From Pelagomonas calceolata (lineage: Eukaryota): a stretch of DNA of 64,000 nt. Where the stretch lies: contig CAKKNE010000001.1 of the NCBI GenBank assembly GCA_918797485.1, forward strand, positions 1,798,001 through 1,862,000, given 5' to 3'. Positions 9,093 to 44,756 of this stretch are shown one piece after another. The notes under the pieces are model-generated. The model worked only from the letters and a program-made list of their open reading frames with translations. It was not told the origin of the DNA and did not search any database. How positions within the stretch are numbered: position 1 is the first letter of the stretch; each line of letters begins with the position of its first letter. Position numbers and translations under genes: made by a program.

Positions 9093-10010
9093 GCCGCCGA
9101 GGCGTGCGCCGACGACACGAAGGGGCAGACGTGCTACATCTGCACGCAGGCCCTACATTGGAAAACGAAGGAGGGCCTCGTGCGCATGTGTGCGTGCCGC
9201 GGGACGGCGGGCTTTGCGCACGTGTCGTGTTTGGCGGAGCAGGCGAAGATTTTGATGGATGAGGCCGAGGAGAATAATTTGAGCGACAAGGTGCAGAGTG
9301 AGAGGTGGAACCGGTGGTACAAGTGCAGCCTGTGCGAGCAAGAATACCACGGCGTCGTGCGGTGTGCGCTCGGATGGGCGTGCTGGAAGACGTACGTGGG
9401 TCGGCCGGAGGTGGATGTGGCTAGGCAAGTGGCGATGACACTGCTTGGGACCGGTTTAGGCGAAGCAGGGCACCACGAGGACGCGTTGACCGTGAGAGAG
9501 GCCGAGTTGTCTATGCTACGACGCCTTGGCGCTGACGAAATCACATTGCTCGTCGCGCAGAACAATATTGCATGTACGTATTCGTTGGTTGGGAGGCTTG
9601 AAGAGGCCTTGCACATGCGGCGAGACATATACTTCAAACGTTTGAAGCTCCTTGGTGAGGAAGATAGCTTGACCCTCAACGCAGCCAACAACTACGGGTT
9701 AGCTTTTCTTAATCTACAACGCTTCGAAGAAGCCAAGCCGCCGTTGCGCAAAATGCTGCCCGTGGCGCGGCGGGTTCTCGGAGAGAATGACGAGATCACG
9801 CTCAGGATGAGGTGGTATTCTGCAGCGGCGCTCTACCACGCCGACGGCGCCACGCTCGGAGATCTCCGCGAGGCAGTGACGACGCTCGAGGAGACGGAAC
9901 GAATCGCACGGCGCGTTTTCGGCGGCGCACATCCGCTCACGGTGGACATTGAGCGCCAATTGCGAGATGCGCGAGCCGCGCTCCGCGCCCGCGAAGCAAC
10001 GAGTAAATAA
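9091..10010 (+). CDS. RINGv (C4HC3) zinc finger plus kinesin-light-chain-like TPR protein; apparently 5'-truncated, possibly a pseudogene
   Basis: CYIC..CACRGTAGFAHVSCL..CSLC RINGv signature and TPR units (NNIACTY..GRLEEAL, LGEEDSLTLNAANNY). The ORF start at 8913 is only the antisense reading of the inverted fragment. Confidence 0.7.
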
Positions 10011-14211: not shown

Positions 14212-17200
14212 ATGAGCGGCCGCAAGTCCTCGACAGGATCGATGAAGCAGACGACGCTCGCGAGCTTCTTCAAGAAGCCCTCCACGAAAGCGCCCGAAGA
14301 ACCCGCAAAACAAAAGGGCCCCGGCGCGGAAGTTGTGGGACGACGCCTCAAGGTCTGGTGGCCCGCCGACGAGGCCTGGTATTCGGGGGGCGTCGCCTCC
14401 TACGACGGCGAGCGCCACGCGATCCAGTACGACGACGGCGACGAGGAGGCCGTCGATTTGTCGAAAGAAAAATTCGAGTTCCTCGAAGGGACACATTCAC
14501 CGAAGGAAGTGAAGCGAGAGACGAAGCGCCCGGCGCCGTCGGCGGGCCTGACGGCCGAACAACGCGCTGATAGAGAGCGCAAGCGCCGGAAGGCGTCCAG
14601 TGATGATGACGACGACTTCGTCGTTGATGATGATGCTTCTATTTCCGAGGAGGAGGAAGAAGAGGACGAGGTCTTCGACGAGAGCGACGATGAGGACAAA
14701 CCGAAGCCGAAGAAACGGCGCGTCATCGCCGATGATAGTGACGAGGAGATGCCTGCGGCCAAATCATCGCCGTCCTCCGTCCCCGTGTCCTCGGACAAAA
14801 AAGAAACGCGGCCGGGCACGCCGACGCCCTTCGACGCCCGGGGCTTCCACGATAGATATCGCAAGCGATCGGCACCGGTCTCCGCCGACAAGCGCGAGTC
14901 GTACGATCTCGTGGAGTTAACTGATCAGAAAGTAGACTCTCATGACAGCGAGAAGAAGTCCGTCTTGCCGGCGGGCTGCCACACGCACGACGTCGATCCG
15001 AAATATGCCTTTCTGACGACTGCGCGGCGAGACGCGGACGGCCGGACGCCCGACGACCCTTCGTTTAATGCCCGCACGCTAAAGGTGGACTGGCACAAGG
15101 AACCCATCGCAAAATTGACGGGCACGCAGCAGACCTGGTGGCAGGTCAAGGAGACGCACGCGGACTGCGTGCTCTTTTATAAAATAGGGAAATTCTACGA
15201 GCTCTACCATACCGATGCTGATGTGGGAGTGGCCGAGGCGGGATTGGTCTACATGAAGGGCGACCAGGCGCACGCCGGGTTTCCGGAGTTGGCCTATGGG
15301 AAATACGTGCGTGACCCGGTGTGATTTAAGACCACGTCGCCTCGACGCCGTCGACGCGAGACGGTGTCGGTCAACACAGGTCGAAGCCTTGGTCTCCAAG
15401 GGCTTCAAAGTCTGCCGCGTCGAGCAGACGGAGACCCCCGATCAAGTTAAAAAACGTATTGCGGGAAGAAGAGGCCTGTCCAAAATAGAAAAGGGCATGC
15501 GCCGGGAAGTCTGTTCGCTGACGACGCCCGGCACTCGATTGTACACGGTCCTGGACATGCGGCTGGAGAAGGAGGGCGGCGGCTTCGAGCCCGTGAGCGG
15601 TCCTACCCACTTAGCTGCGGTGTGTGAGAAGGGTTCTACCGTTGGAGTGTGTGTGTGCGATAGTCCGACTGGAACCTTCACGCTGGCTCAATTCGAGGAC
15701 GACGTGCAGCGCACTAGATTGCGGACATTACTAGCAGCTTTACCGCCCGCCGAGGTGCTGGTACCCAGAGGGTCTCGCGATTTAGCTGAGATTTGTGAGC
15801 GCGCGACGGGCGCATCCGTCGAACTGCTCACACCTCAATCAGAGTTCTTAGATGCGGATTCCTGCATCGAGTATCTCTCAATCTGCGGCGCCTTCCCGAA
15901 AGCCTCGAAGCAGGGCAATGACAACGATGTCAGTGCGAGGTGGCCTCCTGTACTGCGCACAGCAGTTCGTGGCCGAGCGGACTCCGCTTTGTCGTCATTG
16001 GGCGCCGTGGCCTGGTGGCTGCGACGGGCCTTGGTGGACGTGGAGTTACTCAGCATGCGCCGCGTCGACGCGTACGTGCCTCCTGATCTCGGGGAAGCGC
16101 CTGAATCAACTACTGCATTCGTGCCGCACGATGAGGCCCAGCTACTCGAAGCAGCCCTCGCCATCTCCAGTACAGATGACGACGACGACTGGCGCGCAGC
16201 ACTGAGGAGGAAGGCGCCGCGCATGGCCTTGGATGCTACCACACTTAAAAACCTCGAGGTGCTGAGGTCGAGCGCGCCGGACGGCTGGAGTGGGAGTCTG
16301 TGGCACCTGACGCACCACTGTCGCACGGCCTTTGGCGGTCGCTTGCTCAGGGACTGGCTCTCTCGTCCCCTGTTAGATAAGAGAGATATTGATGCGAGGG
16401 CCGACGCGGTCCAGGAGCTCGTGGAGTCGCCTGATCTCTATGAAGGGTTGGCGAAGGCGCTGAAGCAGAAGGGCATCGGCGATCTGGAACGAGCCCTCCA
16501 GCAATTGCACACTTTAGGGGCTGATAGACGTGCGCCGTCCTCTGATGGCCAGCAGCATCCGGACGCGCGCGCGATCCTCTTCGACAAGCTCAAGTTCGAC
16601 GCGCGGCGCGTCAAGCAGCTGTGTAGTGCCATCGCTGGATTAGAGCGATGTGCTACCATCATGTCTTCCTTGACAACGAAGGAGCCTTCTTCTCAGCTAC
16701 TGAAGCGCCTCGCGCCGGGATCTCCACAAAAGAGTGGTGGCGGCTGCTTCCCGTCACTAGAGGATAAACTGAGACTCTTCCGCCAGTTCAACCTCGACCA
16801 CGCGGCGAAGGAGGGTACTCTCAAGTCTTCTAGAGGTGCCGACCCGGCCGCCGACGCCGCCGAAGACCTCGTCAAAGCTCGTGAGAAAGATTTAGATGAC
16901 TGGCTCAAAGAAGCACAGCGTGAACATGGCTGCAGTCTGAAATGGAAGCATTCCGCCAAAGACAGGTACTGCGTCGAGGCGGCGGACGTCCTCTTCGGGC
17001 GCGGCGGGAAATTGGAGAGACTCCCGGCGGGCTGGCAGCAGCGGTCCAAGACGAAGAAAGCTAGATCCTTTGCGGTGCCTGCCCTCAAGTCACTCATACA
17101 AGCGTTAGAAGATGCGGAAAGTTCCGAGAAAGATTTGAAGGCGGACCAGATGCGCCGTTTGTATCAGCGTAGAAATGATGGCGTCGTCATGAGACCGCGT

Positions 17201-18080
17201 CGCCGCGACGCCGTCTTCATGATCATCAGAGAGTCTGACGGCGTCGGTCCGCGCAGGCCTCTTCAAGCAGTTCGACGAGTCGCGGGATCGCTGGGCCTGT
17301 GCCGTGAAGTGCGTGGCGACGCTGGACGCGTTGCTATCGTTGGCGAAAGCCTCCAGGGAGCCGGGGTACTGTCGGGCGGAGTTGCTCGAGGGTGATGGCA
17401 GTACCCTGAAAATTGAGGAGGGGTCGCACCCTTGCTTGGCGGGTGATGTGGTCCCCAATGATTTGACAATTGGAGGTACAAAGCCTCACTTACTACTGCT
17501 GAGCGGGCCGAACATGGGCGGCAAGTCGACGCTGTTAAGGCAGGCGTGCGTCGCGGCGATATTAGCGCAGGTCGGCTGCTTTGTGAAAGCGAAGTCTTGT
17601 ACCTTGCATCCCGTGGATCGGGTCTTTACGCGCTTAGGCGCGTCCGATAAAATCCTGGAGGGCCAGAGTACGTTCATGGTCGAATTACTAGAAACGGCCT
17701 CGATCCTGAAAAACGCGACGGAGAAATCCTTGGTCATCTTGGATGAATTAGGAAGAGGCACGGCGACGTTCGACGGGGCGGCCATCGCTCACTCAGTAGT
17801 GGACCACCTCGTGAAGCAGGCGAAGTGCCGAGCTTTATTTGCGACGCATTACCACGACCTCGTGCGGTCCTGGTCCTCGCACGACAGCGTGCAGCTGGGC
17901 CACATGGATTGTCTGGTTAGAGATGGGGGAGAAAACGTCGTCTTCCTCTACAAGCTCGCCGAGGGCTGCTCGCCCAAGAGCTTCGGCATCAACGTCGCGC
18001 GGCTCGCGCGGCTGCCGAAACGCGTTCTGGAAAGAGCGGCGGAGAAGTCCGCCGAGTTCGAGGACGCGCTGATGGCCTAA
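14212..18080 (+). CDS. MSH6: DNA mismatch repair protein MSH6 (3 exons; introns 15307-15379 and 17157-17256)
   Basis: PIP box QTTLASFF, Tudor-like domain (VWWPADEAWYSG), FYKIGKFYELY, HAGFPE, Walker A GPNMGGKSTL, DELGRGT, FATHYH, KSFGINVARLA. The two GT-AG introns restore YGKY|VEALVSKG and QMR|RLFKQF. Confidence 0.95.
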
Positions 18081-24169: not shown

Positions 24170-27100
24170 ATGCGGCCCGAGACGAAGCCGACGACGCGCC
24201 TCGGCCAGGAGCTGCGCACGACGGTGGCGCCGGCCTTTGGGCAAGAATCAAGGATGCTGGGCATCTTTATTCCCGGTCCCGACCTCTCGAAGTCGGGCGC
24301 CGACGCCTGGGCCAAAAGTCAACTAGATCCGATAGAAAAGGCTAGAAGGAAGGCTCGGAAAATAGAGAAGAGCCTCACGTCGGTCGGTAAAAGACCGTCA
24401 GATTTCGACACTAGAAGGTTTGTCAGGAAGGTCGCGACCGCAGCTAGTGTTCTTGAACACAAACCGGTGATAGGACGGACGTTCCTGAGCGATGACGATA
24501 TACCACAATTCTTGCAACGGAAGGTGAACTGTTCCCTGACGGCGGCGCAGGTCGGGGCTTTGCTGGATAAGGTACCTGAGTACTCTGATCCGAACAAGAC
24601 GAGTGATTGGCTGCTCGAGCACCAACCTGAATCTAGAGTTGTGGACGCGGTCTTTGCGGTCAACTTGATAACGTCGTTAGGAGAAGCGCACAACGGTGTC
24701 CAAACGGCGAATCGCATACGCGCCGATCTTAAAGACGCGGCCCTCGAGGCGAAGGTGCATAAAGCGGCGCGACCGAAGTCTGCGCCGAACCGCGTGCGGC
24801 CGCCCGTCGTCGGCCAGTGCACCACGGCGTTCATGCGGTTGCTCGACTCGCCCTCCAAGAAGAAGACTGAACCTACCATAAGTTTTGGCGTCGCCGCGAA
24901 GCTACTGACAAAAATGAAGAAGACCCGTCCTAAAAGTGCGCGGGGCTGGGGTTCGAGGGATGCTCGTCCATCTGCATATGCGAGAGATATAGCCGGCTGG
25001 TCCATCAAGGCTGTCAAGAGACCGAAGTCAGCGTTGCCGAAGCGCAGCGCCCATGCCCGCTTGAACAACCTGGTGGCCGGGGCGCACATTATTGATCTCG
25101 GAGGCCCTCGGAGACGCACGGAACTCCCGCCGGCACCTTTACCTTCACCTGTCAGGATGCGAGACCTACCGCAAAAACCCCTCGAGGCACACGATGCCGG
25201 CATCGCCAAGCTCCAAGCCATCGCATTACGCCACGAGCGCCACGCCATCGACCGGCTGGACGGGTGTGACATACAAGATCTGGCTTCTTTCGTTGAGAAA
25301 CGATTTCACGTCCACCTGACCAAAGCAGAGGCTTCCGCGATCCAAGGTCTAGCGCGGGACGGTGTCGCGCTCCAAGCTACTTTGCGAGAGTTGGCCACGA
25401 TCGGCTGCCGGCGCTCGCCACGCGTGTTGCTGTCCGGTTTATTAGCTGCTGTTCCTCTAGCACCGGGTGCCAATGAATCATTAGTAGCATTAGGTGGAGA
25501 TCTAGCAGCAAAGGCCTCGCAAGGGTCAGGCCACGCCCAGGATAGGTTGGAGAAGCTCGAGCGGGCCTGTGCGTGGGCCGCCCGTCGTATTGAGCTGTAT
25601 CCGGACGACGAGTCGATAGCCTTTGGGCTGAAAAGATTACAAAAATTAGTAAGGGCGGAGCTCGAACGTAGGCACGTTACCAAGAAGAAAGTGAAAACAT
25701 TGAGACATACCGTGTCCAACAAACCCGCGGACAAGCCTAAACTCGTCAGGAGGGAGTCGAATCTCACAAAACTAAAAAATCAATTAAATGATGCGCATGA
25801 AAGACAAGCTCAACAGCAAGTATTGTCGAAGTTCACGGAGAACCACAGGGTGAGGGAGCACCAGGTGTTCAAGGACGTCCAGGCTCGGAGTCATCGCGCG
25901 CGAGCTACGATGAATGCAGCCGAATTTGCCAGCATGATCCATAGAGATTTAGCGTCGCAGGCGGCGTCGGCCTTCGCCGTGGCGAAGAGTCCCGTTTCTC
26001 AGAAGGACGAGGATGAGTTACATGAGGAGCGGCTGCACCGGATGACGCGCGCGGGCTCGCCCTGTTCGTCCGGGGACGAGGGCTCGCCCCAGGCGTCTCC
26101 AGTGAAGCCCGTGCAAAAGGTCACGGAAGTGAAGGCTCCGTCGAACCCTACGACGCCGCGGCGGCGGCCGTCGCGTCGCACATCGTTACCGACGACGCCC
26201 TCGCAGCGGGGCCCCTTCGGCGCCGTCGCGACCCAATTAGCGGCAGAGGTCATCAACAATTGCGTGCGGAGCTTCGTGTATCGTTGTTTGAGAAAGAAGA
26301 TGGCGCGGGCCCAACACGAGTGGAAGCGCTGGATGGAGCAGCGCGCCCATCGCATGCTGGCAAGAGCCGCGCGGACCTGGGCCGCGAAAGCAAGGATGCG
26401 GAAGCGGTATCTGCGGGTGCAGGCCCAGTTGTTCGACCAGTCGAGGTCGATCATCGAGCGACTCATACTGCGCAAGGTGCGGAAGATGAGGGCCCTCAAG
26501 GCTGGTTTAACTGGGGCGGCCTACGCCATGGCCGTCGGTTCTATTTTTGATAAAGATCCCCTGTCCGAGGAGGAGGCTGCTGTGAGATTGCAGAAGCGTT
26601 TTAGGGCGATTGATGCTCGGGCTCGGTCGATGACCTTGCAACACGCGCGCGAAGCTACTAGATGCATCCGAGTGGAGGTCGTGAAGGCGCGCGGGCTGCG
26701 CGTCGCTGATGCTCGACGCCTGAACCAGGCCGACCACCACACGTTCATCGGCGGGGCCGCGGATCCGAGATGTTACGTTTCTGCACAGTTAGGTAACAGG
26801 GGAGGCTTCGGTCCTAGTAATGCCGGCGCTCCCGAAGAAGCCAAGGAAAGAATAGAGCGCCAGTACGACATCTTACTGAAGCGGCACCAAGCTCTGGACG
26901 AGCAGCACGTCCGCGACGACGGTGTGGAAAAACGAAAGTATCTCGATGCGCTAGACAAGCTCAAGGAGAGCTCGGAGGAGAAGAATAGAGAAGCCATAGC
27001 GTCGCGCGCGGCCAATCTGAGTAGCGTCATGGACAAGGCCTGCCTCCTCAAAATGCGGCGGAACACGATGCCGTTCTGGATGCCGTCCATCGTGCGCGCG

Positions 27101-28111
27101 CGGGACTGGGGCAAGTTCGCCGCCTATCCGTCAAGATACCCCCTATTCCGGGCCAAGACGAAGGTGATCCAGAAGACGCTGGACCCGACGTGGAACGCCC
27201 AATTTGACGTCCATGGGGTGGACCCCGACTCCACGGTCACGTTCACGGTAGCTGACGTGGACGATCCGACGTCGCCTCAGTCCGCCGACGATCGCGACGA
27301 CTTCCTCGGGCAAGTCACCGTGCAACTGAACGCGCTGCGGCACGCCGACTTTCTAGCTCAAATGACCTACGAGGCCGAGCGGCGGGCCAAGCTGAAGGCC
27401 AAGGCGGGCCGACGGCCTTCTAAAACAAAGACGCGCCTCCAGGCCGACGGCGCGTTGCTCGTCATGGATGCTCGGGCAAGGCTAGGTCCGAACCTCGTTC
27501 CGGTCTCGAAAGTAGTCAATGAGAAGGTGAACCACGTGGCGTTCGACGACGTCCACGTCGAGGCGACGGGCGCCGTGTATTATAGGATCTGGGCGGCGCC
27601 TCGAGCTAGATCGATCTGCGGGCACTTGGAGGTGAAGGTGCAACGAGGTTTTGTGGTCAGTTTCTGGAAACCGGTCTGGGCGTGCCTGGCGTTTAACAGG
27701 CTGACGCTGCGGGACCATCGCGGGGACGAACATTTGCGGTTGGACTTGCCTTTACGTCATCTCGAGGCCGTGGAAGTGCACTCGCCGGAGACGGCGGAAA
27801 GTATAGGGGATACGTTTTCCTTGGTCCTTGGAGGTGGGAAGCGTCATGACTTGCGGGTCGGTGATCTCGGAACACCTTTGAGGGATGTGGAGCACCAGGC
27901 CTGGGTGCGGCGGTTGCGGCGATGCGCGCCTAGAATACCAACAAATGAATTCGCGGACAGCGCGTGCCCGTTCCTGGAATATACGGAGACGCGGAAAAAC
28001 GACGGCGGGGTTGCCGCGAGGCGGGCCTCCATGCAGCGGCGGGCCGTCGCGCCGGGGAAGGGCGTCGATCCCCTTGCTGGGTTGGGGGATTTTTTGGCGA
28101 TGAATGGGTAA
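24170..28111 (+). CDS. Large protein with RPKSA repeats, IQ-like segments, a split C2 domain and a C-terminal PH domain
   Basis: C2: IRVEVVKARGL..ADP, then an insertion, then KTKVIQKTLDPTWN..DDFLGQV. PH: CGHLEVK..WKPVWACL..QAWVRRLRR. First ATG at 24170. Confidence 0.75.
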   Translation: MRPETKPTTRLGQELRTTVAPAFGQESRMLGIFIPGPDLSKSGADAWAKSQLDPIEKARRKARKIEKSLTSVGKRPSDFDTRRFVRKVATAASVLEHKPVIGRTFLSDDDIPQFLQRKVNCSLTAAQVGALLDKVPEYSDPNKTSDWLLEHQPESRVVDAVFAVNLITSLGEAHNGVQTANRIRADLKDAALEAKVHKAARPKSAPNRVRPPVVGQCTTAFMRLLDSPSKKKTEPTISFGVAAKLLTKMKKTRPKSARGWGSRDARPSAYARDIAGWSIKAVKRPKSALPKRSAHARLNNLVAGAHIIDLGGPRRRTELPPAPLPSPVRMRDLPQKPLEAHDAGIAKLQAIALRHERHAIDRLDGCDIQDLASFVEKRFHVHLTKAEASAIQGLARDGVALQATLRELATIGCRRSPRVLLSGLLAAVPLAPGANESLVALGGDLAAKASQGSGHAQDRLEKLERACAWAARRIELYPDDESIAFGLKRLQKLVRAELERRHVTKKKVKTLRHTVSNKPADKPKLVRRESNLTKLKNQLNDAHERQAQQQVLSKFTENHRVREHQVFKDVQARSHRARATMNAAEFASMIHRDLASQAASAFAVAKSPVSQKDEDELHEERLHRMTRAGSPCSSGDEGSPQASPVKPVQKVTEVKAPSNPTTPRRRPSRRTSLPTTPSQRGPFGAVATQLAAEVINNCVRSFVYRCLRKKMARAQHEWKRWMEQRAHRMLARAARTWAAKARMRKRYLRVQAQLFDQSRSIIERLILRKVRKMRALKAGLTGAAYAMAVGSIFDKDPLSEEEAAVRLQKRFRAIDARARSMTLQHAREATRCIRVEVVKARGLRVADARRLNQADHHTFIGGAADPRCYVSAQLGNRGGFGPSNAGAPEEAKERIERQYDILLKRHQALDEQHVRDDGVEKRKYLDALDKLKESSEEKNREAIASRAANLSSVMDKACLLKMRRNTMPFWMPSIVRARDWGKFAAYPSRYPLFRAKTKVIQKTLDPTWNAQFDVHGVDPDSTVTFTVADVDDPTSPQSADDRDDFLGQVTVQLNALRHADFLAQMTYEAERRAKLKAKAGRRPSKTKTRLQADGALLVMDARARLGPNLVPVSKVVNEKVNHVAFDDVHVEATGAVYYRIWAAPRARSICGHLEVKVQRGFVVSFWKPVWACLAFNRLTLRDHRGDEHLRLDLPLRHLEAVEVHSPETAESIGDTFSLVLGGGKRHDLRVGDLGTPLRDVEHQAWVRRLRRCAPRIPTNEFADSACPFLEYTETRKNDGGVAARRASMQRRAVAPGKGVDPLAGLGDFLAMNG

Positions 28112-28139
28112 TGTGGTCCACTCTAGTTATGTTCAAGTT

Positions 28140-28580
28140 CGGAGCTCTCTAGGCGACCCGCTCTATCATATCAGTTTACAACATCAAACGACATACTTAT
28201 TGCGGCGCTTCCTCGATTTCGATTCGCAGTGCAATAGAGACGTCGTCCGGCTTACGTGCCCCGCCGCGCGGGTGCTACCGCCAATAAAGTAAAGGCGGCA
28301 CGGGGCAGTCTATCTTCATTCCTGACCTCATGTCGCGGATAGCCGACAATCCGAGTGAGGGCATAAGCATACAGGGAAGAGCAAGCGCCGTCGGCATAGA
28401 AAAAAGCCGGGCGCAGAGGTCCAGTCGTACCGTCAGTCGCGTCCAGAATTCGGAAAAGGGGCTCGGCGCATATTCGCACATAGGCAAGGAAATATTGCCT
28501 TGGCTGCGGGCCGAGCGACAACGACAGGCAAATAGGAATTGACAGGATCCCTGGAAATAGTATAGCGGGCAAAATCGTGT
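28140..28580 (-). mobile_element. Possible decayed tyrosine-recombinase fragment (DIRS/Ngaro-like)
   Basis: AT-richer block. Across frameshifts the minus strand gives YFLAY..EPLFRILD..GPL, then IGGSTRAA, then SFDVVN*YDRA, loosely matching the C-terminal half of retrotransposon tyrosine recombinases. Confidence 0.3.
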
Positions 28581-28745
28581 TTTGTGAAAAGAGTCGGGCG
28601 TGAGCAGGGCGTCAGCGTGGGTGGCGGTTCGGGAGTCAGTCTCTGTGGCGTCGGATCGTCCCCGTTACAGATAGAAGCAGCGTCGAGTTTTGTGGAGCAG
28701 GGCGTCGGCGCGGTGGAAAACATGGCCAACGCGGCGGGCGCGCAC

Positions 28746-31700
28746 CTAGGTCGTCGCAGCAGCGAACACGGCATCAAACATGCCACGCTCCTCCAAACGA
28801 AGTCGGCGGAGGTGCGCGACCAAATCAGCAGTCGGACCGGTTGCCGCTCGACGTTCTAGGTCTGCCGAGGCGGCCGAGGCGATAGTCCCCACATGCGCGA
28901 CGTACGACGCCAGAGCGCTCTGGAAGTAAGGCCCCTCCATGATTTGGTCGTCAACGAGCAGCTCCCGGCCGCGTGGCTCGACAAGCGCTAACGCGTGATC
29001 AAGCCCCTCGCGACGCACACCATTTACAAAAAAGTTTCGGTCATTGTTGACGGCCTGGGAAACCCACGACGCAAGGTCCTCGGCGACGGCTTGAGACGCC
29101 GCCGCGTGAACAGTAGAGACGGCGCCCTCGACGAAGGCGTCTGCGGCCCCGGGTGTCGGTCCCGCATACGCAGCGCGAGCATTATCTCTGGCCTCGACCC
29201 GCACGCGCGCGGGACCGTCAGCGCCAGCGCGAGACAGGGCGACAGCGCGGGCACGCCATGTGTCTAAGGTGGCCTGGGCAGCGGCCACGCCCTGGTCACG
29301 GGCGATGGCCTCAGGCGTCGGCGCGGCAGGCGGCTCGGCGGCGGCAGGCGTCGCGGCGGGCGTCGGCACGGCGGGCGTCGGGCCGGCAGGCGTCCCGAGG
29401 AAGGGCGGCGGCGCGTCGGCACCTCTCCGCGCGCGCCGAGGCGCGCCGCGCCTCGGCGCGGCGACGGGCTGCCCGTCGCCGGGCAGGAGCGCCAGCGTGT
29501 CGGGCGTCGGGCCGGCCGGCGTCGACGCAGGAGCGCGTCCCGGCGTCAACCGCAAGAGATCGTCCACGTCGGCGACGGCCGGGTTGAAATGGTGGTAGAC
29601 GTGCACGCCGCGATCCTTGATAAAGCCGTAGTTGTTGAGCTGGCGCTGGAACGAGGAGTACTTGTCCGTGCTGAGGTTGCGCCGCAGGACCTCCTCAATT
29701 CGATCCCGTTGGTGGACGACGATCCTTTTCCTTGCGGCGTCCCAGGAGAGGACGCCCGAGTGCTGCGTTACCATGGCGTGTAGGGCCGTGGGGAACCTCG
29801 GCGCGCCGGGCGTCGGCGCGGCCGGCGTCGGCGCGGCGGGCGTCGGCGCGGCGGGCGTCGGCGCGGGCGTCGATCTGGTGCGACTATACATCAGCCGCAA
29901 AAAGTCGGCGGCGTCGGAGACGGTTTCATTGGAATTTTTGAAGACGACCACGCCGCCGCCCCATGGCTGAGAGTTGCTCCAGGTGGTAAGCTCGACATTT
30001 CGGTAGAAGCCGTAGAAGTTGAGCTGGCGATAGAACGTGGCCCACGAGTCCGAGATGGGGTAGAGCCGCAGGACGGTCTCGATTCGATCTCGTCGAATGA
30101 AGAGCGCCCGCCTCGCGGCGTTCCACCAGATCACGTTGGAGTGCAGCTCCGGGTACTCCGTCACCATGGTGTGGAGGACCGTGAGGAACAGGGGTGCGGC
30201 TCGCGCGGACCGTGAGGAACAGGGGTGCGGCTCGCGCCGCTGCTCGCGCTCGCGCCGCTGCTGGCGCCGCCGCTCGCTCTGCTCGCGCTGCTCGCGCGCG
30301 CGCCGCTCGCGCTCCTCCTCCGTGCGCACCGATATAACCGGTAGCCCTCGCGCGGCCCGCGTCGCCGCGCGTCGCTCCTGCGAATCCATCGTCCAGCCCG
30401 CCGGCACGAGGATGTTGCCCTGCCGTGGGTCGGCGACGCGGCCTCCGCCGCCCTCCGCGATGCGGTTGACGTTGAAGATGCGCAACGGGAAACGCGCGAA
30501 GACGTCGTCGAGGCCGCCCTGCTCGAGAGGCAGAAGGACCTTGCGGTAGAAGTGCTGCCGAGTCTCCCTGGGCAGGCTCAGCACGACGGCCTGGGGCTCG
30601 ATGACGTCGCAGATGTGGAAGGCGGCATGGAGGAGGTCCCGGCACTTCGCCTGGCACTCCCTAAACCACACGCGCCAGCGAGCCGTCTTCCCGCCGTATT
30701 TCACTTCATCATGATGCTTACGGCCGCGTGTCGCAAGGAATTTCTTCGCCGCTTCTTTCACAGCGGCAGCATTACCACTAGTGATGGCGTCGCGGAGCTC
30801 CTGGCCGTGGCGCCTCCAGACGTCCTTGTCGACGAGGTGGCTGCCGACGTAGAAGTTGCGGAACCAGGGCGCAGCGATCTTGTAATAGATGCCACAGTGC
30901 GCGCCCGCCTCGTCGACGCGGCCATCGTCGTCGCTCTCGAGCTGTTCGGTCGCCACGTCCGTGATCGTGCGCTGCACGTCCCGTGTCAGATCGAAGATCG
31001 TCGGCGTCGCGCGCGTCGCCGACGTACACCTCGCAAATGTAAGGCATTTGATGTTGAGGGTCAGCCCAAGATCGCGGACTTTTTGTTCGAGCGGGTCGAC
31101 GATGGCTTCGAGAGTATAACCACACCAGTAGTCGTCGTCGACGATGACGAGCGTGTCGGTGGTCCGACTGATCTCAATGAGCTCCTCTTCGTCGACGGCG
31201 AGCTTGCCCTCGTGCCAACGACGCCTGGCAGGGATGTCGTCGCTCGGCGCCTTCTCACGGGGCTCCTCGAGAAGGGGTCGAAAGATGACCCTGTCGGCCA
31301 TGCGCGCGTTCGGTACCAGCCGCACGACGGCGTCGGCTAGGTCCCAAACCCTGTCGCCGGCCTCAGCCCTAAGCCTGTTGTGATGAATAGCGGGGATCAC
31401 TGCCGCCCCGCGCATCCAATCGGCACGCAGAGCGGCCCCGGCGAGCAGACCTTGCGTGGTCCTCGTGATGTCCTCCCTCTTAGCCTTAAAATACTGCCAG
31501 AAGGCGCCGTCGATGCCGGCGTTAACAACGATATCAACTAAGAACCACGTCTCCGTCGCCCGAGTTGCGTCACGTCGAAGTTCGTGGCCGTGCATGCCTT
31601 CGGGAGGGGTGCTCGACGCGTTGGACGCGTTTCTAGCGGCCCTCGACCCGAAGTCGGTCAGAGCATGCACGTCTCGTTGCATCGGACCAGGTACTCGAAG

Positions 31701-32366
31701 AACCCCGTCCATGAGCTCGGCGTTCGCCTCGAGGAACTCGTCCGCAGGCGCGACGGCGAGCTGCCCGTCGCCGGGCAGGAGCGCTAGCGCGTCGGGCATG
31801 GGGCCAGCAGGCGCCCCGTGGAAGGGCGGCGGCGCGTCGGCATCTCTCCGCGCGCGCCTCGGCGCGCCGAGCTGCTGCTCGTCGTCCATGTCGTAGGCGG
31901 GAGGCGGCTCCTCGTCGAGATCGAAGCCCATGACGTCGTAGGCGGGAGGCGGCTCCTCGTCGAGATCGAAGCCCTCGGCGTCCGAGACGCCCGCGCTGAG
32001 GTCCGAGCCCGAGGCTCTTTCGTTCATCACGTAGTCGGCACCGGCGGGATCGGCCTCGTCGCGGCTCTGGAGGCCGTCGGAGTCGTGGTCGTAGGGGTCG
32101 CCGGCGTCGCCATGACGCGCCGTGCCGGGCCCCCAGCCAGGGCCAAGCACGGCGACGAGCGCAGCACCAGGCGGAGGCGGCCCGTGCGCAGCATCCAACG
32201 CAAGGTCTCCGTCGTCCCTCTCCCCGACTCGACGCCGTGGTGGACGGGGTGGCGTCGTCCCATGTACTCGGCGGCGGCGACGTCCCACGACGACCGCTCC
32301 TGCCGCGAGGCCGCCGACGCCGACCGCCGTCGCGACGGCTGGTGCGCCCAGGGCATCCAACAACAT
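28746..32366 (-). CDS. Chimeric protein: ComF-like phosphoribosyltransferase, GIY-YIG endonuclease and two HSF-type DNA-binding domains; probably extends upstream via introns
   Basis: PRTase VIPAIHH..LVIVDDDYWCGYTL..LTFAR; GIY-YIG GIYYKIAAPWFRNFYVGS..LEQGGLD..FNVNRIA; HSF domains FLTVLHTMV..WATFYRQLNFYGF and FPTALHAMV..YSSFQRQLNNYGF. Confidence 0.75.
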   Translation of the reverse strand: MLLDALGAPAVATAVGVGGLAAGAVVVGRRRRRVHGTTPPRPPRRRVGERDDGDLALDAAHGPPPPGAALVAVLGPGWGPGTARHGDAGDPYDHDSDGLQSRDEADPAGADYVMNERASGSDLSAGVSDAEGFDLDEEPPPAYDVMGFDLDEEPPPAYDMDDEQQLGAPRRARRDADAPPPFHGAPAGPMPDALALLPGDGQLAVAPADEFLEANAELMDGVLRVPGPMQRDVHALTDFGSRAARNASNASSTPPEGMHGHELRRDATRATETWFLVDIVVNAGIDGAFWQYFKAKREDITRTTQGLLAGAALRADWMRGAAVIPAIHHNRLRAEAGDRVWDLADAVVRLVPNARMADRVIFRPLLEEPREKAPSDDIPARRRWHEGKLAVDEEELIEISRTTDTLVIVDDDYWCGYTLEAIVDPLEQKVRDLGLTLNIKCLTFARCTSATRATPTIFDLTRDVQRTITDVATEQLESDDDGRVDEAGAHCGIYYKIAAPWFRNFYVGSHLVDKDVWRRHGQELRDAITSGNAAAVKEAAKKFLATRGRKHHDEVKYGGKTARWRVWFRECQAKCRDLLHAAFHICDVIEPQAVVLSLPRETRQHFYRKVLLPLEQGGLDDVFARFPLRIFNVNRIAEGGGGRVADPRQGNILVPAGWTMDSQERRAATRAARGLPVISVRTEEERERRAREQREQSERRRQQRREREQRREPHPCSSRSARAAPLFLTVLHTMVTEYPELHSNVIWWNAARRALFIRRDRIETVLRLYPISDSWATFYRQLNFYGFYRNVELTTWSNSQPWGGGVVVFKNSNETVSDAADFLRLMYSRTRSTPAPTPAAPTPAAPTPAAPTPGAPRFPTALHAMVTQHSGVLSWDAARKRIVVHQRDRIEEVLRRNLSTDKYSSFQRQLNNYGFIKDRGVHVYHHFNPAVADVDDLLRLTPGRAPASTPAGPTPDTLALLPGDGQPVAAPRRGAPRRARRGADAPPPFLGTPAGPTPAVPTPAATPAAAEPPAAPTPEAIARDQGVAAAQATLDTWRARAVALSRAGADGPARVRVEARDNARAAYAGPTPGAADAFVEGAVSTVHAAASQAVAEDLASWVSQAVNNDRNFFVNGVRREGLDHALALVEPRGRELLVDDQIMEGPYFQSALASYVAHVGTIASAASADLERRAATGPTADLVAHLRRLRLEERGMFDAVFAAATT

Positions 32367-32373
32367 CTGGCTC

Positions 32374-32645
32374 CTGTGTGGAAATCAAACAGTGAGTGAG
32401 GTTCGGATAAAGCGAGAATGCGGTCATGTCGCTCCTTTCTGGGACACGAAGCCGTCGAAACCACTTCGAGCGACGGCGAACATGTAGACGATCGATTTCT
32501 GAAAGCAACTTTCTGCACTGGCGGTCGCGGGTCCGTCTCGGGGAAACCGCCGAAGTCGGCGGCGCTCGCACCTGTGTGGAAATCAATCAGTGCGCGAGTG
32601 GCGCCGCAGAACTGTTGATTCGTGCGCCGGTCTGCACTCTTTACA
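32374..32645 (-). other. Two introner-type 3' ends (TGATTTCCACACAG) upstream of the PRTase-GIY-YIG-HSF ORF
   Basis: + strand CCTGTGTGGAAATCAA at 32373 and 32571 gives minus-strand acceptors ending at 32374 and 32572. Donors are ambiguous. Confidence 0.6.
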
Positions 32646-33639
32646 CAAAAACAAAACACCACGAACGCCAAAAGTTGCGCTAGATGCGCGGCCGGCAGGG
32701 CCGCAACACGCGGCAGGGCCGCAACACGCCGTCGACGCGGTTCGCCCGTCCGAGGCTCCGCGTCGTCGTCGTCCCGCGGCGTCGCCGCCGGCGCGCAGTG
32801 CGCCGAGCCACGGCTTGCCAACGCGCACTCGACGCTTGTATTTGCCCGGCCGGCGCCATCGTCCGCGCTGGGCGTCGAGACGTCGTCGGCGCGCACGGGC
32901 AGCGCTGCGTCGGCCGCGAGCGCGGGGACGATGGCGTCGGGCGCTGAAGCGGCGCCGGCGGGTGCGCGACCCCGAAAAGGGGCCGCGGCGAGCGCGCCGA
33001 CCGCGCTGGCTGCGCCGGCGGCGCACGTAAGCACGATGCCGACTAGGCTTGTGCATGCCGTGGCCACGGAGCCCTTTTGTCGGTCGTGGGCGCCAAGGCC
33101 GCGGCGAGCGCCGCGGCGGCCGCCGCCTTTGCACCGCACGAAGCCGCGCTTGGGCCTGCAGCACGGCCACACGCTGCGGCCGCCGACCTGCGAGGGATAT
33201 TTTTAGAGCAGCGATGATTAAATACGACGCCGCGACGTGCCGCGTAGCGCCCACGGCCAAAGCGAGACATCTAGCCTTTCATGTGGGATCCCAGCCAGGG
33301 AGGGCGGCGCGCAGCGCTGTGGCGCTGCGAGGCTCCTAAGAGAGCCATGTTTTGCGTTTGGCGTCAGCAGCAATGCATTAGTGAGCTGCGCCGCCGAGCG
33401 GCGTGTCGCCGACAGCAGCAGCAGCAGGCCAATTCCTAGCATGGCGCCCAGGCGCACGGCGCAGGCGCTTGACGCGCGCATTGCGCCTCAGACGAGCTGC
33501 TGCCTCTGCTGCATGGCACAAAACGCAGCCGTGCGGCTGCGTTGCTTGGGGTTTGGGGCTGCCCTTGCTGTTTGCTGGACGCGCCGACTAGCTAAGTCGC
33601 GGGTTCAGCACAACCGTGGGGATTGAACGTTGAAGTTGT

Positions 33640-34060
33640 TCTACTTACGGATGCTACTGCTGCTCCATATTGGATCTTCGATCTCATGAGAAATATTGAG
33701 GGGTCAGGGTCCACCGTGCCTGTGCCAAGGAACTAGTCGGCTAATTGATGAAGTGGCTATTGCTTTAAGGTCTTCTGTGATAGCAGCGTCGCGGATATTC
33801 GCAGGTGCAGGCGTTGGGCCCGTCTTCGCATAAATTCGGGGCTCCGAAGTCACCGACATCGGTGCCGTCGACGGGACACCTACTCCCTCACAGTAATCGT
33901 CTGACTGTGTTAGATGGACTCTTCCAATCCCAAATAGGCGTACACACATAAATATGTTAGAGTTGATGGGTCTAGAGGTTCCCTTTAGAAACTTTCTCTC
34001 GTCCACGGACCCCGGAAGCCATCCCTATTTATTACTCATTCACTCACCCAGCTGTGTATA
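33640..34060 (+). mobile_element. Possible decayed RNase H of a DIRS/Ngaro retrotransposon
   Basis: AT-richer, stop-riddled block encoding WIFDL..KVFCDSS and, further on, RW..THINMLELMGL, resembling the HINxLEL motif of DIRS-type RNase H. Confidence 0.35.
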
Positions 34061-35350
34061 ATTATCATGATAGTAGCGGGCGGTGCTGACGCGAGCTTAC
34101 TATTACTTCTACTTACTCACGGATCTATCAAATATTAAAATTGAGCATCGGCCCGGGGCTGAGCGAGGGCCCGCCGACGCCGCCGCGCGTCGTACCCGTT
34201 GGCAGTGTGACTCTGTAGAGCAGGTCTTACGCACCCGATGACCAGCGATACAAGGTATGGACGGGTGTGGACACGACGTTCATCTCAAAATGGTCCATTC
34301 GAGGTGGTGCTCGGTGGCGGGCAGTCTAATTATCCTGAAGACTATGTTCGCCCATACTCAAGCGACGGAAAAGGGCGAAGAACAGCCGCCAAACTATTCT
34401 TGCAGGTCCAGAAGCACACACAACGTCACGTCGGCCCGGCCGAGGCAGCGCAGTTTCGGCGGTACGGCGGCGGTAGCGAGGGAACTCCAATTCCACGTAA
34501 ACAACTTAGCGCCTCTATTAGCGGTTTGTCCGGCACCCTGGGAGTGGAACGTGGGGATTTGCAAGCGAGCGAGCGTGCAGCTCGCTGCCACGCTAGCTCG
34601 GCGTCCACGCAGCCGCTGGGCGGAGCGTCAACTGAAGCGCCGTCGAGTTAAAGCCACCACGGCGGCCGTCGGCTGCGCGTCGATGGCAGCGAGAGCGGCC
34701 CGCCCGCGCGCATGACGCGCACATGCGAGCTGCACCTTGCCTAGCCTAAAATCGAATTTGCCATGCGAGTTCCAATGACCACCGGAGTACACCCGCACCT
34801 GCATTTCACGTTCATGTCACGGGCAAGGGGCCGGGCTCAATCTCGTGCAGGAAAAGGGAGTTGGAGTCTAGAGGCGACGCGTTGCCTCCAGCTGCAGCTG
34901 TTGCTGCTTGGCAGCTACAGCAGGCACCTGGCTGTGGGCTGCAGCCCACTGGGCAGCCTCAGGGGCACCTGCGAGTGCAAGAGGCACGTTTTAAGCAAGT
35001 CACTGAGCTCGCTCCGCAGGCTAGTACCAATTCTTTCCTTCTAGCTTAATTGCGAGCGTCGGTGTTTGATTGGTGAAGTGAGCTATGCCCCCCTGGGCGG
35101 CGGTCCTCGGGTCTCGCAAGGGTCAGGAACGAGTCCCTGACGACGCAGCCCCACGGAGAGGTCGAAAGCAAATGAAACGCCGCCTAATTTCATGGATTAA
35201 CACCAAAATGTTCTTCAAGCTAGTGGGTTTTCAAGAACCGAGGGCTAGTATGTCAACCGGAAGTTGCGGCCGCTTTCGGTCGGTTTGCGTCGGCAGCTAC
35301 CGACTAATTTCCCAGCAGCCCAAACTGGCGACGAGGCGCAAAACTAGACC

Positions 35351-36133
35351 ATGGCAGCCATGATGCAGAGGCGCCTGGGAGCCAAGCTCCGGACCGCCGA
35401 CGACTACGCCACGGCCGACGAGGAGGAGATCAGGGAACTGAGCGCCATGACGGGCATCAAGTACAAGCAGCCGGCGCGCCGGCCGCAGCCGAAGCGCATC
35501 GCGGCGCCGGCCTCGACGCTCGTGAACCTGAACGAACTGAAGCAGCTGGCCGAGGAGGACGGCTCGCCGGTCAAGGCGCGCAAGGCGCTCGCCCCCCCGG
35601 AGACGGCCGAGCTCGGCGACGTCTGGTGGAACACGCACCGCGAGGAGGCCGAGGAGCCGGCGCCTGTGGCCCGGTCGCCGCCGCGGCCCGCATCATCTTC
35701 GGCGCGCCGGAAACAGATAAAGGCCGCGTCGGCGGCGTTCGTCGCGTCGGCGTCGACCGCGGCCGTTGCGTCGAACCGCCAGGCGACGGCCGGTCGCAAG
35801 AAAACAGCTCCGCGCCGAAAAACGCCCGACGCGCGGCGCGCGCCGCGCGGCGGCATCCTGGACGACGGCGCCGTGGTCCCGAGGCCGGGCGACCCCTACA
35901 AAGCGGCGTCGACGGCGCCGCGGCGGAAGACGCCCGAACCAGCGCCGCGCGTCGTCCGGACGGCGCGGGTCGAGCAGGCCGTGCCGCCGCCGCGGTCGAA
36001 GCCACGGAAGAGCCCCGCCGCGCTGCCCTCGCTGACCTGCGCGCCCGATACGTCCTTCGACCTCTTCGCGTGGCCCGGCGAGGCGCCGGCGCGCGACGAG
36101 GACGCGCTTGCGGAAAGGCTCGTCGCTCTATGA
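35351..36133 (+). CDS. Hypothetical protein (Pro/Ala/Arg-rich)
   Basis: ATG-initiated 260-aa ORF with strong GC3 bias; no domain recognised. Confidence 0.6.
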   Translation: MAAMMQRRLGAKLRTADDYATADEEEIRELSAMTGIKYKQPARRPQPKRIAAPASTLVNLNELKQLAEEDGSPVKARKALAPPETAELGDVWWNTHREEAEEPAPVARSPPRPASSSARRKQIKAASAAFVASASTAAVASNRQATAGRKKTAPRRKTPDARRAPRGGILDDGAVVPRPGDPYKAASTAPRRKTPEPAPRVVRTARVEQAVPPPRSKPRKSPAALPSLTCAPDTSFDLFAWPGEAPARDEDALAERLVAL

Positions 36134-37092
36134 ATAAGGTGTAGTAATTTTAGTTATCTAGACGGGCGACCGCACTACTAGCCTTCCGACGACGAGAGAA
36201 CGACGAGAAGGCCAACGCGCCGCCCACCGCTCTTGAATCGCACAGGTCGACCTCTGTATGCACTACCTTCACTGGTACCGCGTCGTCGCCGTGTTCTCGA
36301 CGACGGCGGAGCGCTTGGCTCAGGCCGAGCTCTCGCTCTTCCACGGCGCGGGCATCTCATACGTCGAGAACTAGGCGGCGGTGTCGCGGTCGTCGCACCA
36401 CGTCAAATACAGCTAGCGCGCGCCGCCGACTCGCTCGCGGAACACCCGCCGTCCCGGAGCGAGTTCTTGCGGACGGTCGCCATCTCGCCGCCGCAGGACG
36501 ACGAGCCAGCCCTTGTCTCTATCGGGCAGAGAGGCATTTCCTTGAGATAAAAGCAAAGATGCAAGCGGCGCCGTGCGGGCGCAGTTGGCCGGGCCTCGGG
36601 GGCAGCGTCGGCGTCGTCGAGCTGCGGGCAATGTCACACGGCGTCCCGAGCTTTGCTCTTCCTGTCCTTGTGTGGGCAGAGCCGGTGGTGGCCCGCGCCG
36701 GGCCCAGCGACGGGTCGCAGGGGCTGCTTGGGATTGCTGGGGGCGTCGGGTATGCATGTGTTTACGCTCGTCAGCCCTCTGGCGATTTTTTGGCACCCAA
36801 CTTTTTTGAAAGCATGCTTGCCGGGTCTAGAGCTCGGGGCGGGCCCGCCGAGAGGCATGGGAGCTTTCTTTGGAGGCGTTTGTTCGAGCAGATGGTATTC
36901 CGTAAAAGTGAGGTGTTGGTGCTCTTGCCAGCACGACACAATTGCCGCTTGCACGCTGGCAGTGTTGCGCTATCGCTTGCAAACATGGCGCAGCAGCGGT
37001 ACCCACCGCACTAATACGCTGCACGACACACGAAACCGCGTAAAAAAGCGACGCGCGTAAGCATTTACAAGACCAAACCAGCTCATTGCCAA

Positions 37093-38159: not shown

Positions 38160-38560
38160 GCTACCACCGTCGACGGCGTCTCGCGGGCGCGGAGCGCGGC
38201 TCGCGCTTTTCGCGCCCGCTGCCCCCGCGGGTTAAGATTGTTTTTTGCTCTATGTTTATGCGGTACTAGGACTAGTGGGCAGAGTCACCTGTCGGACGTC
38301 GATTCCTGAACTCTCCAATGTCTCTGCCAACTCGGATCAACGGGATATACTAGCCCGTCCAGTAAATTCGCGGCGCGGAGCGCGGCTCGCGCGTGTCGCA
38401 GATCCCCCTCAATCCCCGCCGTGTTCGGGTGCGCGCCGCCGAGAACGCGTCGCGCGGTCCGTTCCACCTCCTCGAGCGTCGTCACGGCCTCGCGGAGATC
38501 GTCGAGCGTGGCGCCCTCAGCTTGGTAGAGCGCCTCCCCGTAATTCCACCGCATTCTGAG
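38160..38560 (-). pseudogene. Two further 3' fragments of the RINGv/TPR family
   Basis: 38366-38560 encodes LTLRMRWNYGEALYQAEGATLDDLREAVTTLEEVERTARRVLGGAHP..ARAALRA; 38170-38210 encodes ARAALRARETP. Confidence 0.7.
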
Positions 38561-38561
38561 C

Positions 38562-38786
38562 GTGAGCCAAGCGCCGACGCATCCGAGCCCCGCGCCGACT
38601 ACGGGCGGACCTACGGCCGAGCCTACTTCGGAGCCGACGGCCGCGCCTTCCACTGGTCAACCTACAAGCGAGCCCACGGCGCAGCCGTCCACCGCGACCG
38701 GCGAGCCCACAAGCGAGCCCACGGCGCAGCCGTCCACCGCGACGGCCGAGCCGACGAGCGAGCCGACGGCCGAGCCGTCCTCGTGA
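38562..38786 (+). pseudogene. Orphan Pro/Thr-repeat (PTxEPT) coding fragment
   Basis: Encodes PTAEPTSEPTAAPSTGQPTSEPTAQPSTAT..., has no ATG, and is joined head-to-head to the TPR fragment. Confidence 0.5.

Positions 38787-40658: not shown

Positions 40659-44756
<4,098 letters not shown>

What the first reader, a model, noticed from the sequence alone, without database searches (positions are those of the whole stretch)
28746..32366. Novel PRTase + GIY-YIG nuclease + 2x HSF DNA-binding domain fusion
Seen in one 1206-aa frame: a ComF-like type I PRTase (~31410-31030; VIP..H, VIVDDD..G.TL, LTFAR); a GIY-YIG domain with GIY-x-YVG, downstream Arg/His, LEQ..LD and FNVN motifs (~30900-30450); a charged linker; and two HSF winged-helix domains with F.RQLN.YGF (~30190-29880 and ~29800-29550), without the HSF trimerisation heptads. 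Known: GIY-YIG domains of this type occur in homing endonucleases and virus proteins joined to separate DNA-binding modules; ComF-like PRTases occur in bacterial DNA-uptake and conflict modules; HSF domains bind nGAAn repeats. Inference: a eukaryotic site-directed nuclease or DNA-modifying effector aimed at heat-shock-element-like DNA, either a selfish element's targeting protein or an antiviral effector. It lies in a gene-poor island with mobile-element relics. This is the best candidate for an undescribed system here.
Basis: partly seen in the sequence, partly recalled or inferred. Interest (0 to 1): 0.88.

Follow-up and report, generated by a model that had tools for sequence, protein, structure and literature searches.

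The report
Algal nuclease with swappable aiming domains
A gene of the ocean alga Pelagomonas joins a predicted nucleotide-binding domain like that of bacterial DNA-uptake proteins to a predicted DNA-cutting domain like that of phage homing enzymes, and its relatives keep this pair while swapping the attached DNA-binding modules, so it is likely a selfish or defensive DNA cutter whose aim would be set by borrowed transcription-factor parts.

Summary
The open frame and all four domains are real. The predicted fold matches ComF best (Z 13.2) for the PRTase and I-TevI (Z 8.1, 91 of 92 residues) for the GIY-YIG domain; two HSF domains pass Pfam. The host is Pelagomonas calceolata, where the locus is annotated only as an HSF gene. 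The lasting unit is the PRTase + GIY-YIG core: 22 relatives were found, median identity about 24%, with the nuclease Tyr, Tyr, Arg, His and Glu invariant. HSF is an exchangeable accessory: C-terminal in one relative, N-terminal in a wild copy of this locus, joined by zf-CW in another, with weak Myb or KIX hits in two more. The gene probably has four exons (1416 aa); 9 of 9 coding indels against the wild copy keep frame. Against: no reads, an exact 31-nt duplication holds HSF in frame, amino-acid constraint is weak, and no transposase, terminal repeats or gene-poor island were found. Best reading: a selfish, nucleotide-gated nickase aimed by captured chromatin modules (0.4); defence effector next (0.25). 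No description was found in five full-text searches.

The parts
33241..33270 (-). Predicted exon 1 with start codon (followed by a 53-nt GC-AG intron)
   Evidence: Modelled on annotated paralog P0112; spliced frame open in window and L001; no transcript of this copy seen
32638..33187 (-). Predicted exon 2, Ala-rich; the paralog's counterpart has two hydrophobic segments (66-nt GT-AG intron follows)
   Evidence: tblastn of P0112 73%; 5 of 5 indels against L001 keep frame; hydropathy computed on P0112
32529..32571 (-). Predicted exon 3 (155-nt GC-AG intron follows; the two acceptors are a 34-nt repeat)
   Evidence: family D12
28746..32373 (-).
32283..32339 (-). Hydrophobic segment followed by five Arg (possible membrane anchor)
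   Evidence: Kyte-Doolittle 1.95 over 19 residues; absent from P0047 and P0109 as called
31707..32090 (-). Acidic, low-complexity linker shared by diverged copies
   Evidence: about 45 of 52 residues identical between P0047 and L001 in its first part (my count)
31023..31589 (-). ComF-like type I PRTase domain; flexible-loop Arg381, PRPP loop DD-x4-G-x-T at 31151-31110
   Evidence: VIA-align Z 13.2 to ComF, 8.6 to ShosT; D410 in 16 of 16 rows, R381 in 14 of 15
30462..30896 (-). GIY-YIG nuclease domain with a helical hairpin inserted between the YVGS strand and the catalytic Arg; Y495, Y506, R547, H551, E615, N632
   Evidence: Z 8.1 to I-TevI; ESM Atlas 0.92 to SegE-like GIY-YIG clusters; invariance
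30176..30237 (-). Exact 31-nt tandem duplication at the join of charged linker and HSF1; with one copy only, the frame ends after 724 residues, before any HSF
   Evidence: (D13)
29880..30197 (-). HSF DNA-binding domain 1
   Evidence: Pfam E 2.3e-9 alone; PDB HSF hits
29544..29801 (-). HSF DNA-binding domain 2; a 92%-identical copy sits upstream of the PRTase in wild locus L001
29366..29521 (-). Scrambled copy (84-87%) of the linker at 31747-31884, so the PRTase-to-HSF2 block is bracketed by direct repeats
   Evidence: D4, D6
28200..28328 (-). Downstream flank shared with a P0047-type copy
   Evidence: P0096 matches here at 86% over 43 codons although its nuclease part is 61% identical to the window and about 59 of 65 identical to P0047

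Best explanation
This is likely a selfish, nucleotide-gated DNA nickase: a predicted ComF-type PRTase domain and a predicted GIY-YIG nuclease form a conserved core, and exchangeable DNA- or chromatin-binding modules (here two HSF domains) would aim it. Shown: the frame, the HSF domains, the conservation of nuclease residues across the family, the reshuffling of modules. Predicted: both folds. Inferred mechanism: the HSF domains dock on TTC/GAA motifs in open chromatin; the PRTase binds PRPP or a nucleoside monophosphate (and perhaps single-stranded DNA) as ComF does and acts as a switch rather than as a salvage enzyme; the nuclease then nicks nearby DNA; recombinational repair copies, truncates and shuffles the gene, which would explain partial copies elsewhere, mosaic copies with similar ends and diverged middles, and turnover of the aiming module.
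For: Folds: ComF Z 13.2 against 8.6 for the next row; I-TevI Z 8.1 against 4.8. Family: 22 relatives at E<=0.001 among 1.84 billion representatives; 13 rows span the core, median pairwise identity 24%; of 372 well-filled columns 10 are invariant and 7 of these are GIY-YIG motif residues (P0100, P0114, P0124 dropped before counting). Module exchange: HSF C-terminal in P0047, HSF + zf-CW N-terminal in P0109, HSF N-terminal in L001, Myb in P0117 (E 0.004) and KIX in P0105 (E 0.007), both below cut-off. Mobility-like traces: truncated copy P0112 on another chromosome-size contig; P0047-type copies share the acidic linker and the 3' flank while the core is 36-49% identical. Patchy occurrence: only one named protein (P0112) among the 11 of 22 clusters looked up. 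ComF-like PRTases are described in selfish elements and fused to DNA enzymes (PMC5512222 section 24; PMC4670107 passages); ComF binds PRPP, NMPs and ssDNA (PMC9005727 passages).
Against: No transposase, reverse transcriptase or integrase among 30 + 8 window frames scanned; no terminal inverted repeats bracketing the gene; no empty-site allele seen; no DNA context for any relative but L001. The gene has introns, host-like GC3 and ordinary neighbours. No full heat-shock element in the window and one two-unit site in 28112-35340. The shared ends could equally mean deeply diverged alleles of one locus, or a chimeric contig for P0096. The hydrophobic N-terminus fits a tethered host protein better than a mobile gene. 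dN/dS against L001 is 0.40 in the PRTase part (137 codons, p 0.06) and not below 1 with any significance elsewhere. The second Asp and the G-x-T of the PRPP loop are degenerate in about a third of rows. No activity, ligand binding or expression of this copy was shown.
Confidence: 0.4

Rival explanations
1. A host defence or suicide effector. The protein would be held inactive (possibly membrane-tethered) until infection changes PRPP or nucleotide pools, then cut viral or own DNA; the fast divergence and module swapping would reflect an arms race, with diverged alleles kept at one locus.
For: ShosT is the second structural match (Z 8.6) and the PADLOC ShosT model matches 4 of 23 alignment members (best E 9.6e-7); PRPP binding is needed for ShosT toxicity (PMC12961424 abstract) and the RqlH PRTase is genotoxic. 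Hydrophobic N-terminal segments. Coding frame preserved in a wild copy.
Against: The window's own protein has no PADLOC hit; no antitoxin or DprA-like neighbour among the frames scanned; HSF, zf-CW, Myb and KIX modules point at host chromatin rather than at viral DNA (inference); no expression data under infection.
Confidence: 0.25
2. The PRTase + GIY-YIG core is a working family protein, but this particular HSF fusion is incidental: a recent rearrangement, a decaying copy or an assembly error at the 31-nt duplication.
For: The frame into HSF1 depends on a 100% identical 31-nt duplication; substitution identity to L001 is the same in coding and non-coding DNA (91-97% against 93-96%); HSF dN/dS 0.69, not significant; the paralog is truncated and has frameshifted wild forms (P0084, P0113); gene number Pca_1p10370 is missing from the published table, which may mean a split model.
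Against: P0047 has the same PRTase-GIY-YIG-HSF order in one frame at 38% identity; L001 and P0109 also fuse HSF in frame with the core; 9 of 9 coding indels keep frame while 9 of 9 non-coding ones do not; all nuclease and HSF recognition residues are intact.
Confidence: 0.2
3. A domesticated host factor for DNA repair, recombination or nucleotide-responsive transcription, like PurR or PyrR in using a PRTase fold as a sensor and like Slx1 in using a GIY-YIG flap nuclease at promoters.
For: PurR and Slx1 appear among weaker structural rows; intron-bearing gene among housekeeping neighbours.
Against: The published annotation gives no NR match for the locus while its neighbours have stramenopile matches; relatives are 16-39% identical between lineages; module order differs between two copies about 93% identical, unlike a stable housekeeping gene.
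Confidence: 0.15

Closest known systems
I-TevI and Seg-type GIY-YIG homing endonucleases of phages
   Same: Catalytic GIY-YIG fold (Z 8.1, 91 of 92 residues; SegE-like Atlas clusters 0.92), same Tyr-Tyr and Arg-His spacing, nuclease joined by a linker to a separate DNA-binding module (module layout recalled).
   Different: Fused to a PRTase; helical hairpin inserted before the catalytic Arg; eukaryotic HSF, zf-CW, Myb or KIX modules; not inside an intron; nuclear gene with its own introns.
ComFC (ComF/GntX family PRTases)
   Same: Best structural match (Z 13.2); PRPP loop and long Arg-bearing flexible loop; TIGR00201 matches 2 of 23 members, best E 4.7e-5.
   Different: No 4-Cys zinc finger before the PRTase; fused to a nuclease; eukaryotic; no competence context.
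RqlH (helicase-PRTase) and ShosT (PPase-PRTase toxin); PRTases of polyvalent proteins
   Same: A ComF-like PRTase fused to a second enzyme in a DNA-damage or conflict setting; ShosT second structural match.
   Different: Partner enzyme is a GIY-YIG nuclease; no DprA-like partner found nearby; carries chromatin-targeting modules.
Stramenopile HSF transcription factors
   Same: Two HSF DNA-binding domains with intact RQLN-YGF helix; lack of heptads is common in the group; the genome has at least 23 PF00447 genes, one with zf-CW (table cut when stored).
   Different: HSF is an accessory on a two-enzyme core and is missing or elsewhere in relatives.

Membership tests
GIY-YIG nuclease superfamily | Three-stranded alpha/beta GIY-YIG fold | tested here: met
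   Top five VIA-align rows are GIY-YIG folds, best Z 8.1, rmsd 2.4; Foldseek alone weak, E 1.3; no Pfam hit
GIY-YIG nuclease superfamily | Two Tyr motifs 10-11 apart plus Arg, His, Glu, Asn of the active site | tested here: met
   Y495, Y506, R547, H551 in 16 of 16 rows, E615 in 17 of 17, N632 in 8 of 9; catalytic roles are recalled from I-TevI, Y495 placed by the alignment
GIY-YIG nuclease superfamily | Metal-dependent DNA cleavage | not testable with these tools
   needs an assay
Homing endonuclease genes | Located in a self-splicing intron or intein | tested here: not met
   No Rfam match in 27000-37000; stand-alone gene between host genes. Free-standing homing genes are not excluded by this
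Homing endonuclease genes | An empty allele that the enzyme cuts and invades | not testable with these tools
   No genome held; only one other locus fetched
Type I PRTase, ComF clade | PRTase fold with PRPP loop hhhhDD-x4-GxT | tested here: met
Type I PRTase, ComF clade | Conserved Arg in the loop shared by ComFC-like and invasive-element PRTases | tested here: inconclusive
   R381 in 14 of 15 rows; equating it with the Arg of PMC5512222 is my inference
ComFC proper | N-terminal 4-Cys zinc finger | tested here: not met
   No Cys pair precedes the PRTase in the translation; feature from PMC9005727
ShosTA / RqlHI | PPase or RecQ-like helicase fused to the PRTase | tested here: not met
   The fused domain is GIY-YIG; no such Pfam hit in the protein
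ShosTA / RqlHI | Adjacent DprA-like partner | tested here: inconclusive
   None among the 30 frames of about 200 aa or more scanned; shorter or spliced genes not covered
HSF transcription factors | HSF winged-helix DNA-binding domain with RQLN-YGF helix | tested here: met
HSF transcription factors | HR-A/B trimerisation heptads | not tested
   No coiled-coil predictor was run; by eye Pro/Ala-rich linkers follow both domains; not universal in stramenopiles
Penelope-like retroelements | Reverse transcriptase coupled to the GIY-YIG domain | tested here: not met
   No RT in the protein or in the scanned frames
DNA transposons | Terminal inverted repeats and a transposase | tested here: not met
   Best inverted match 17 nt, with one arm inside exon 2; no transposase hit. 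A non-autonomous element without such ends is not excluded

The most novel reading that the evidence does not exclude
A eukaryotic family of PRPP-switched nucleases that spreads or defends by capturing transcription-factor and histone-reader modules: one natural scaffold that couples nucleotide status to DNA cutting and is re-aimed by swapping HSF, zf-CW, Myb or KIX domains, in one of the most abundant algae of the ocean.
Probability: 0.25. Interest if true: 0.9.

Novelty: new variant of a known kind. Interest (0 to 1): 0.72.

Why it matters
ComF-like PRTases fused to DNA enzymes are an open puzzle (RqlH, ShosT, phage polyvalent proteins): they bind PRPP, yet in the passages read no substrate is established. 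A single chain that carries such a domain next to an intact nuclease gives a direct read-out: does PRPP or an NMP switch cutting? It also shows a phage-type nuclease wired to eukaryotic chromatin modules, hidden from annotation (the locus is listed only as an HSF gene). If selfish, it is an unrecognised driver of genome change in a globally abundant alga; if defensive, a candidate algal antiviral effector with bacterial-type parts; either way a natural modular nuclease scaffold.

Tried and rejected
Reads: none could be obtained, so expression and the 31-nt join are open. No whole genome was held, so copy number is unknown. Viral contigs: five scans with the window core, P0117, P0047, P0134 and P0128 found no relative; the alignment was too divergent to scan with. 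Prokaryote genomes: one scan with P0117, none. tblastn of the core against phages and plasmids: no match at E<=1. These see close relatives only. Foldseek gave nothing at E<=0.001. PHROGs: nothing for the window protein. Atlas search with the two-domain core gave only 0.79 (PRTase family). Profile search of the word-indexed protein set added nothing new. Homodimer prediction of the core: no answer, score 0.00, alignment not used. A Myb-like stretch in P0109 seen by eye got no Pfam or PDB support and is not counted. Helitron-like or inverted termini: nothing convincing. Expression tables of PMC12054182 and PMC13284251 gave no hit for the locus tag or for the neighbour used as control (six files of the second not searched), so uninformative. 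Earlier scan findings: four look-ups, nothing. Literature: searches returned 0 papers; some searches returned 5, 1 and 1 listings whose titles and abstract starts do not describe this fusion; I did not open them.
Full report
Observation. Neighbouring proteins are identical or clustered with Pelagomonas calceolata records, and by gene order (C2 gene, HSF gene, unknown, ankyrin, RFC, acetate kinase) the locus is Pca_1p10360 in the genome paper's table, where it has only an HSF annotation and no NR match; number 10370 is absent from that table (PMC9481584, supplementary file 4 rows; main-text passages). The exact 1206-aa sequence is not in the protein collection.

Domains. Pfam finds only HSF (E 3e-21, two stretches), and each HSF domain matches solved HSFs with the recognition helix intact. 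For the middle part I aligned 23 sequences and folded it (pLDDT 85) and the nuclease part alone (pLDDT 82). Foldseek was weak (no E<=0.001; ComF and ShosT at probability 0.91, I-TevI rank 2 at E 1.3). The exhaustive aligner was clear: ComF Z 13.2 (rmsd 3.2, 158 residues), then ShosT 8.6 and ordinary PRTases about 8 and below; I-TevI Z 8.1 (rmsd 2.4, 91 of 92), then T4 EndoII, PD-T4-3, UvrC and a plant GIY-YIG fold at 4.8 to 3.4. The tool warns that Z near 8 can be a common arrangement; here the match covers the whole target and the five best rows are one superfamily. The Atlas independently ranks SegE-like GIY-YIG clusters first (0.92, but 146 shared features, under the 170 typical of the same family). 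A helical hairpin is inserted between the YVGS strand and the Arg helix, which probably explains the failure of profile searches (inference).

Family. A search of 1.84 billion representatives with the core gave 22 proteins at E<=0.001. Thirteen alignment rows span both domains, one a near-duplicate; median pairwise identity is 24%, range 16-97%. After dropping P0100, P0114 (frameshifted tails) and P0124 (duplicate), 10 of 372 columns with at least 14 residues are invariant: G260, D410, A527 and seven nuclease positions (Y495, Y506, G508, S509, R547, H551, E615). The hits were selected by similarity to the window, which favours such agreement, but the concentration on active-site positions is not expected from that alone. 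The PRPP loop is looser: D411 in 11 of 16, G416 in 11 of 16, T418 in 10 of 16. So PRTase + GIY-YIG is an old, conserved pair under selection for a working nuclease site (inference). Its range is unknown: of the 11 of 22 clusters looked up, only P0112 has an organism name (P. calceolata). No relative was found in viral contigs, prokaryote genomes, phages or plasmids, by searches that see close relatives only.

HSF is exchangeable. Of 39 relatives scanned with Pfam (many are fragments or near-duplicates), HSF passes in 3 (P0047 after the nuclease; P0109 and P0107 before the PRTase, with zf-CW), zf-CW appears in 4, Myb weakly in 1 and KIX weakly in 2; most have no accessory hit. P0047 has the window's order in one frame, 38% identical over 617 columns. 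The one related locus fetched, L001, follows the window at 90-92% by blastn from 34000 into the PRTase, but carries a copy of HSF2 inserted in frame upstream of the PRTase; the contig ends before the nuclease, so its C-terminal part is unseen. In the window the PRTase-to-HSF2 block is bracketed by scrambled 84-87% repeats of one linker, a plausible substrate for such moves.

Gene structure and selection. The annotated paralog P0112, on another chromosome-size contig and with a transcript record, shares three upstream exons and the PRTase (63% over residues 225-470) but no nuclease. Using it as a guide gives four exons, two GC-AG and one GT-AG intron, and a 1416-aa open frame; the same model is open in L001. 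Against L001, 9 of 9 internal indels in coding segments are multiples of three and 9 of 9 in non-coding segments are not (boundaries were mine, end gaps and the rearranged stretch 32214-32082 left out). Amino-acid constraint is weak: dN/dS 0.40 in 137 PRTase codons (p 0.06), 0.69 for HSF, 0.71 for exon 2, 2.2 for the acidic linker, none significant. The join from nuclease to HSF1 depends on an exact 31-nt tandem duplication; with one copy the frame stops at residue 724. It may be a recent compensating event or an assembly error; no reads were available.

Surroundings. Flanking genes are ordinary. Gaps are 634 nt downstream and 2078 nt upstream, the second largest in my list of long frames. No mobile-element domain, RNA family or terminal inverted repeat was found. 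GC3 is host-like. One trace of mobility or allele exchange: the fragment P0096 has a P0047-type nuclease (about 59 of 65 identical to P0047, 61% to the window) joined to the window's downstream flank 28328-28200 at 86%, and P0047 shares the acidic linker start with L001 at about 45 of 52 residues while its core is 36-49% identical to the window. Similar ends with diverged middles fit either subfamilies of a mobile gene or old alleles at one locus.

Mechanism. ComF binds PRPP, monophosphate nucleotides and ssDNA, and its PRT activity is unproven (PMC9005727, passages). The RqlH PRTase is needed for genotoxicity (PMC4670107, passages). ShosT binds PRPP without activity on four common purines (PMC11961720, passages) and needs PRPP binding to be toxic (PMC12961424, abstract and outline). 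Related PRTases ride in phage and plasmid polyvalent proteins, proposed to make or sense a nucleotide (PMC5512222, passages and section 24). Stramenopile HSF domains bind TTC/GAA units, many without coiled coils (PMC11267843, passages). From this I infer a nickase that is aimed by its accessory module and switched by the PRTase. I favour a selfish gene (0.4) because of the I-TevI-like layout, partial and mosaic copies and fast module turnover; defence (0.25), an incidental or decaying HSF fusion (0.2) and a domesticated repair or regulatory factor (0.15) remain open. None of targeting, gating, cutting or spreading is shown.

Novelty. Five full-text searches showed no description of a PRTase-GIY-YIG fusion; I saw listings only, and the library lacks most subscription journals. 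All parts are known and the layout (nuclease plus separate DNA-binding module; PRTase fused to a DNA-conflict enzyme) has precedents, so I file it as a new variant; it fails membership of ComFC proper, ShosTA/RqlHI, Penelope elements and intron-encoded homing genes. Interest 0.72.

Noticed in passing
window 8921-9080, 9796-9995 and 38168-38565: Dispersed repeats of 150-200 nt at 81-87% identity, in both orientations; size fits the introner-like introns reported for this genome or a small non-autonomous element.
   Followed up: no
window 14212-17395 and 47157-48791: An MSH6-like MutS gene with a Tudor domain, and a second, more diverged MutS II/III frame about 30 kb away.
   Followed up: no
window 40659-43739: Acetate kinase and DRTGG frames; annotated as one fused acetate kinase/phosphate acetyltransferase gene whose best NR match is cyanobacterial.
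   Followed up: partly
window 32367-32400 and 32565-32598: The acceptors of introns 2 and 3 are an 85% identical 34-nt repeat, and two of three introns have GC donors.
   Followed up: partly
P0112, P0084, P0113, P0114: A truncated paralog with the upstream exons and PRTase but no nuclease; wild forms carry an internal deletion with frameshift.
   Followed up: partly
relatives P0088, P0090, P0094, P0097, P0098, P0102, P0103, P0105: Their called proteins run into Arg-rich tails at about the same place, just after the catalytic Glu helix, suggesting a shared intron there that the window copy lacks.
   Followed up: no
window 28750-28735: A donor-like GTGCGC follows the stop codon directly, so the last exon or 3' UTR may be spliced.
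   Followed up: no
genome table rows Pca_5p02120 and Pca_1p02110: Host genes that join HSF with PHD and (in the first) zf-CW; a possible source of the HSF + zf-CW cassette seen in P0109.
   Followed up: no
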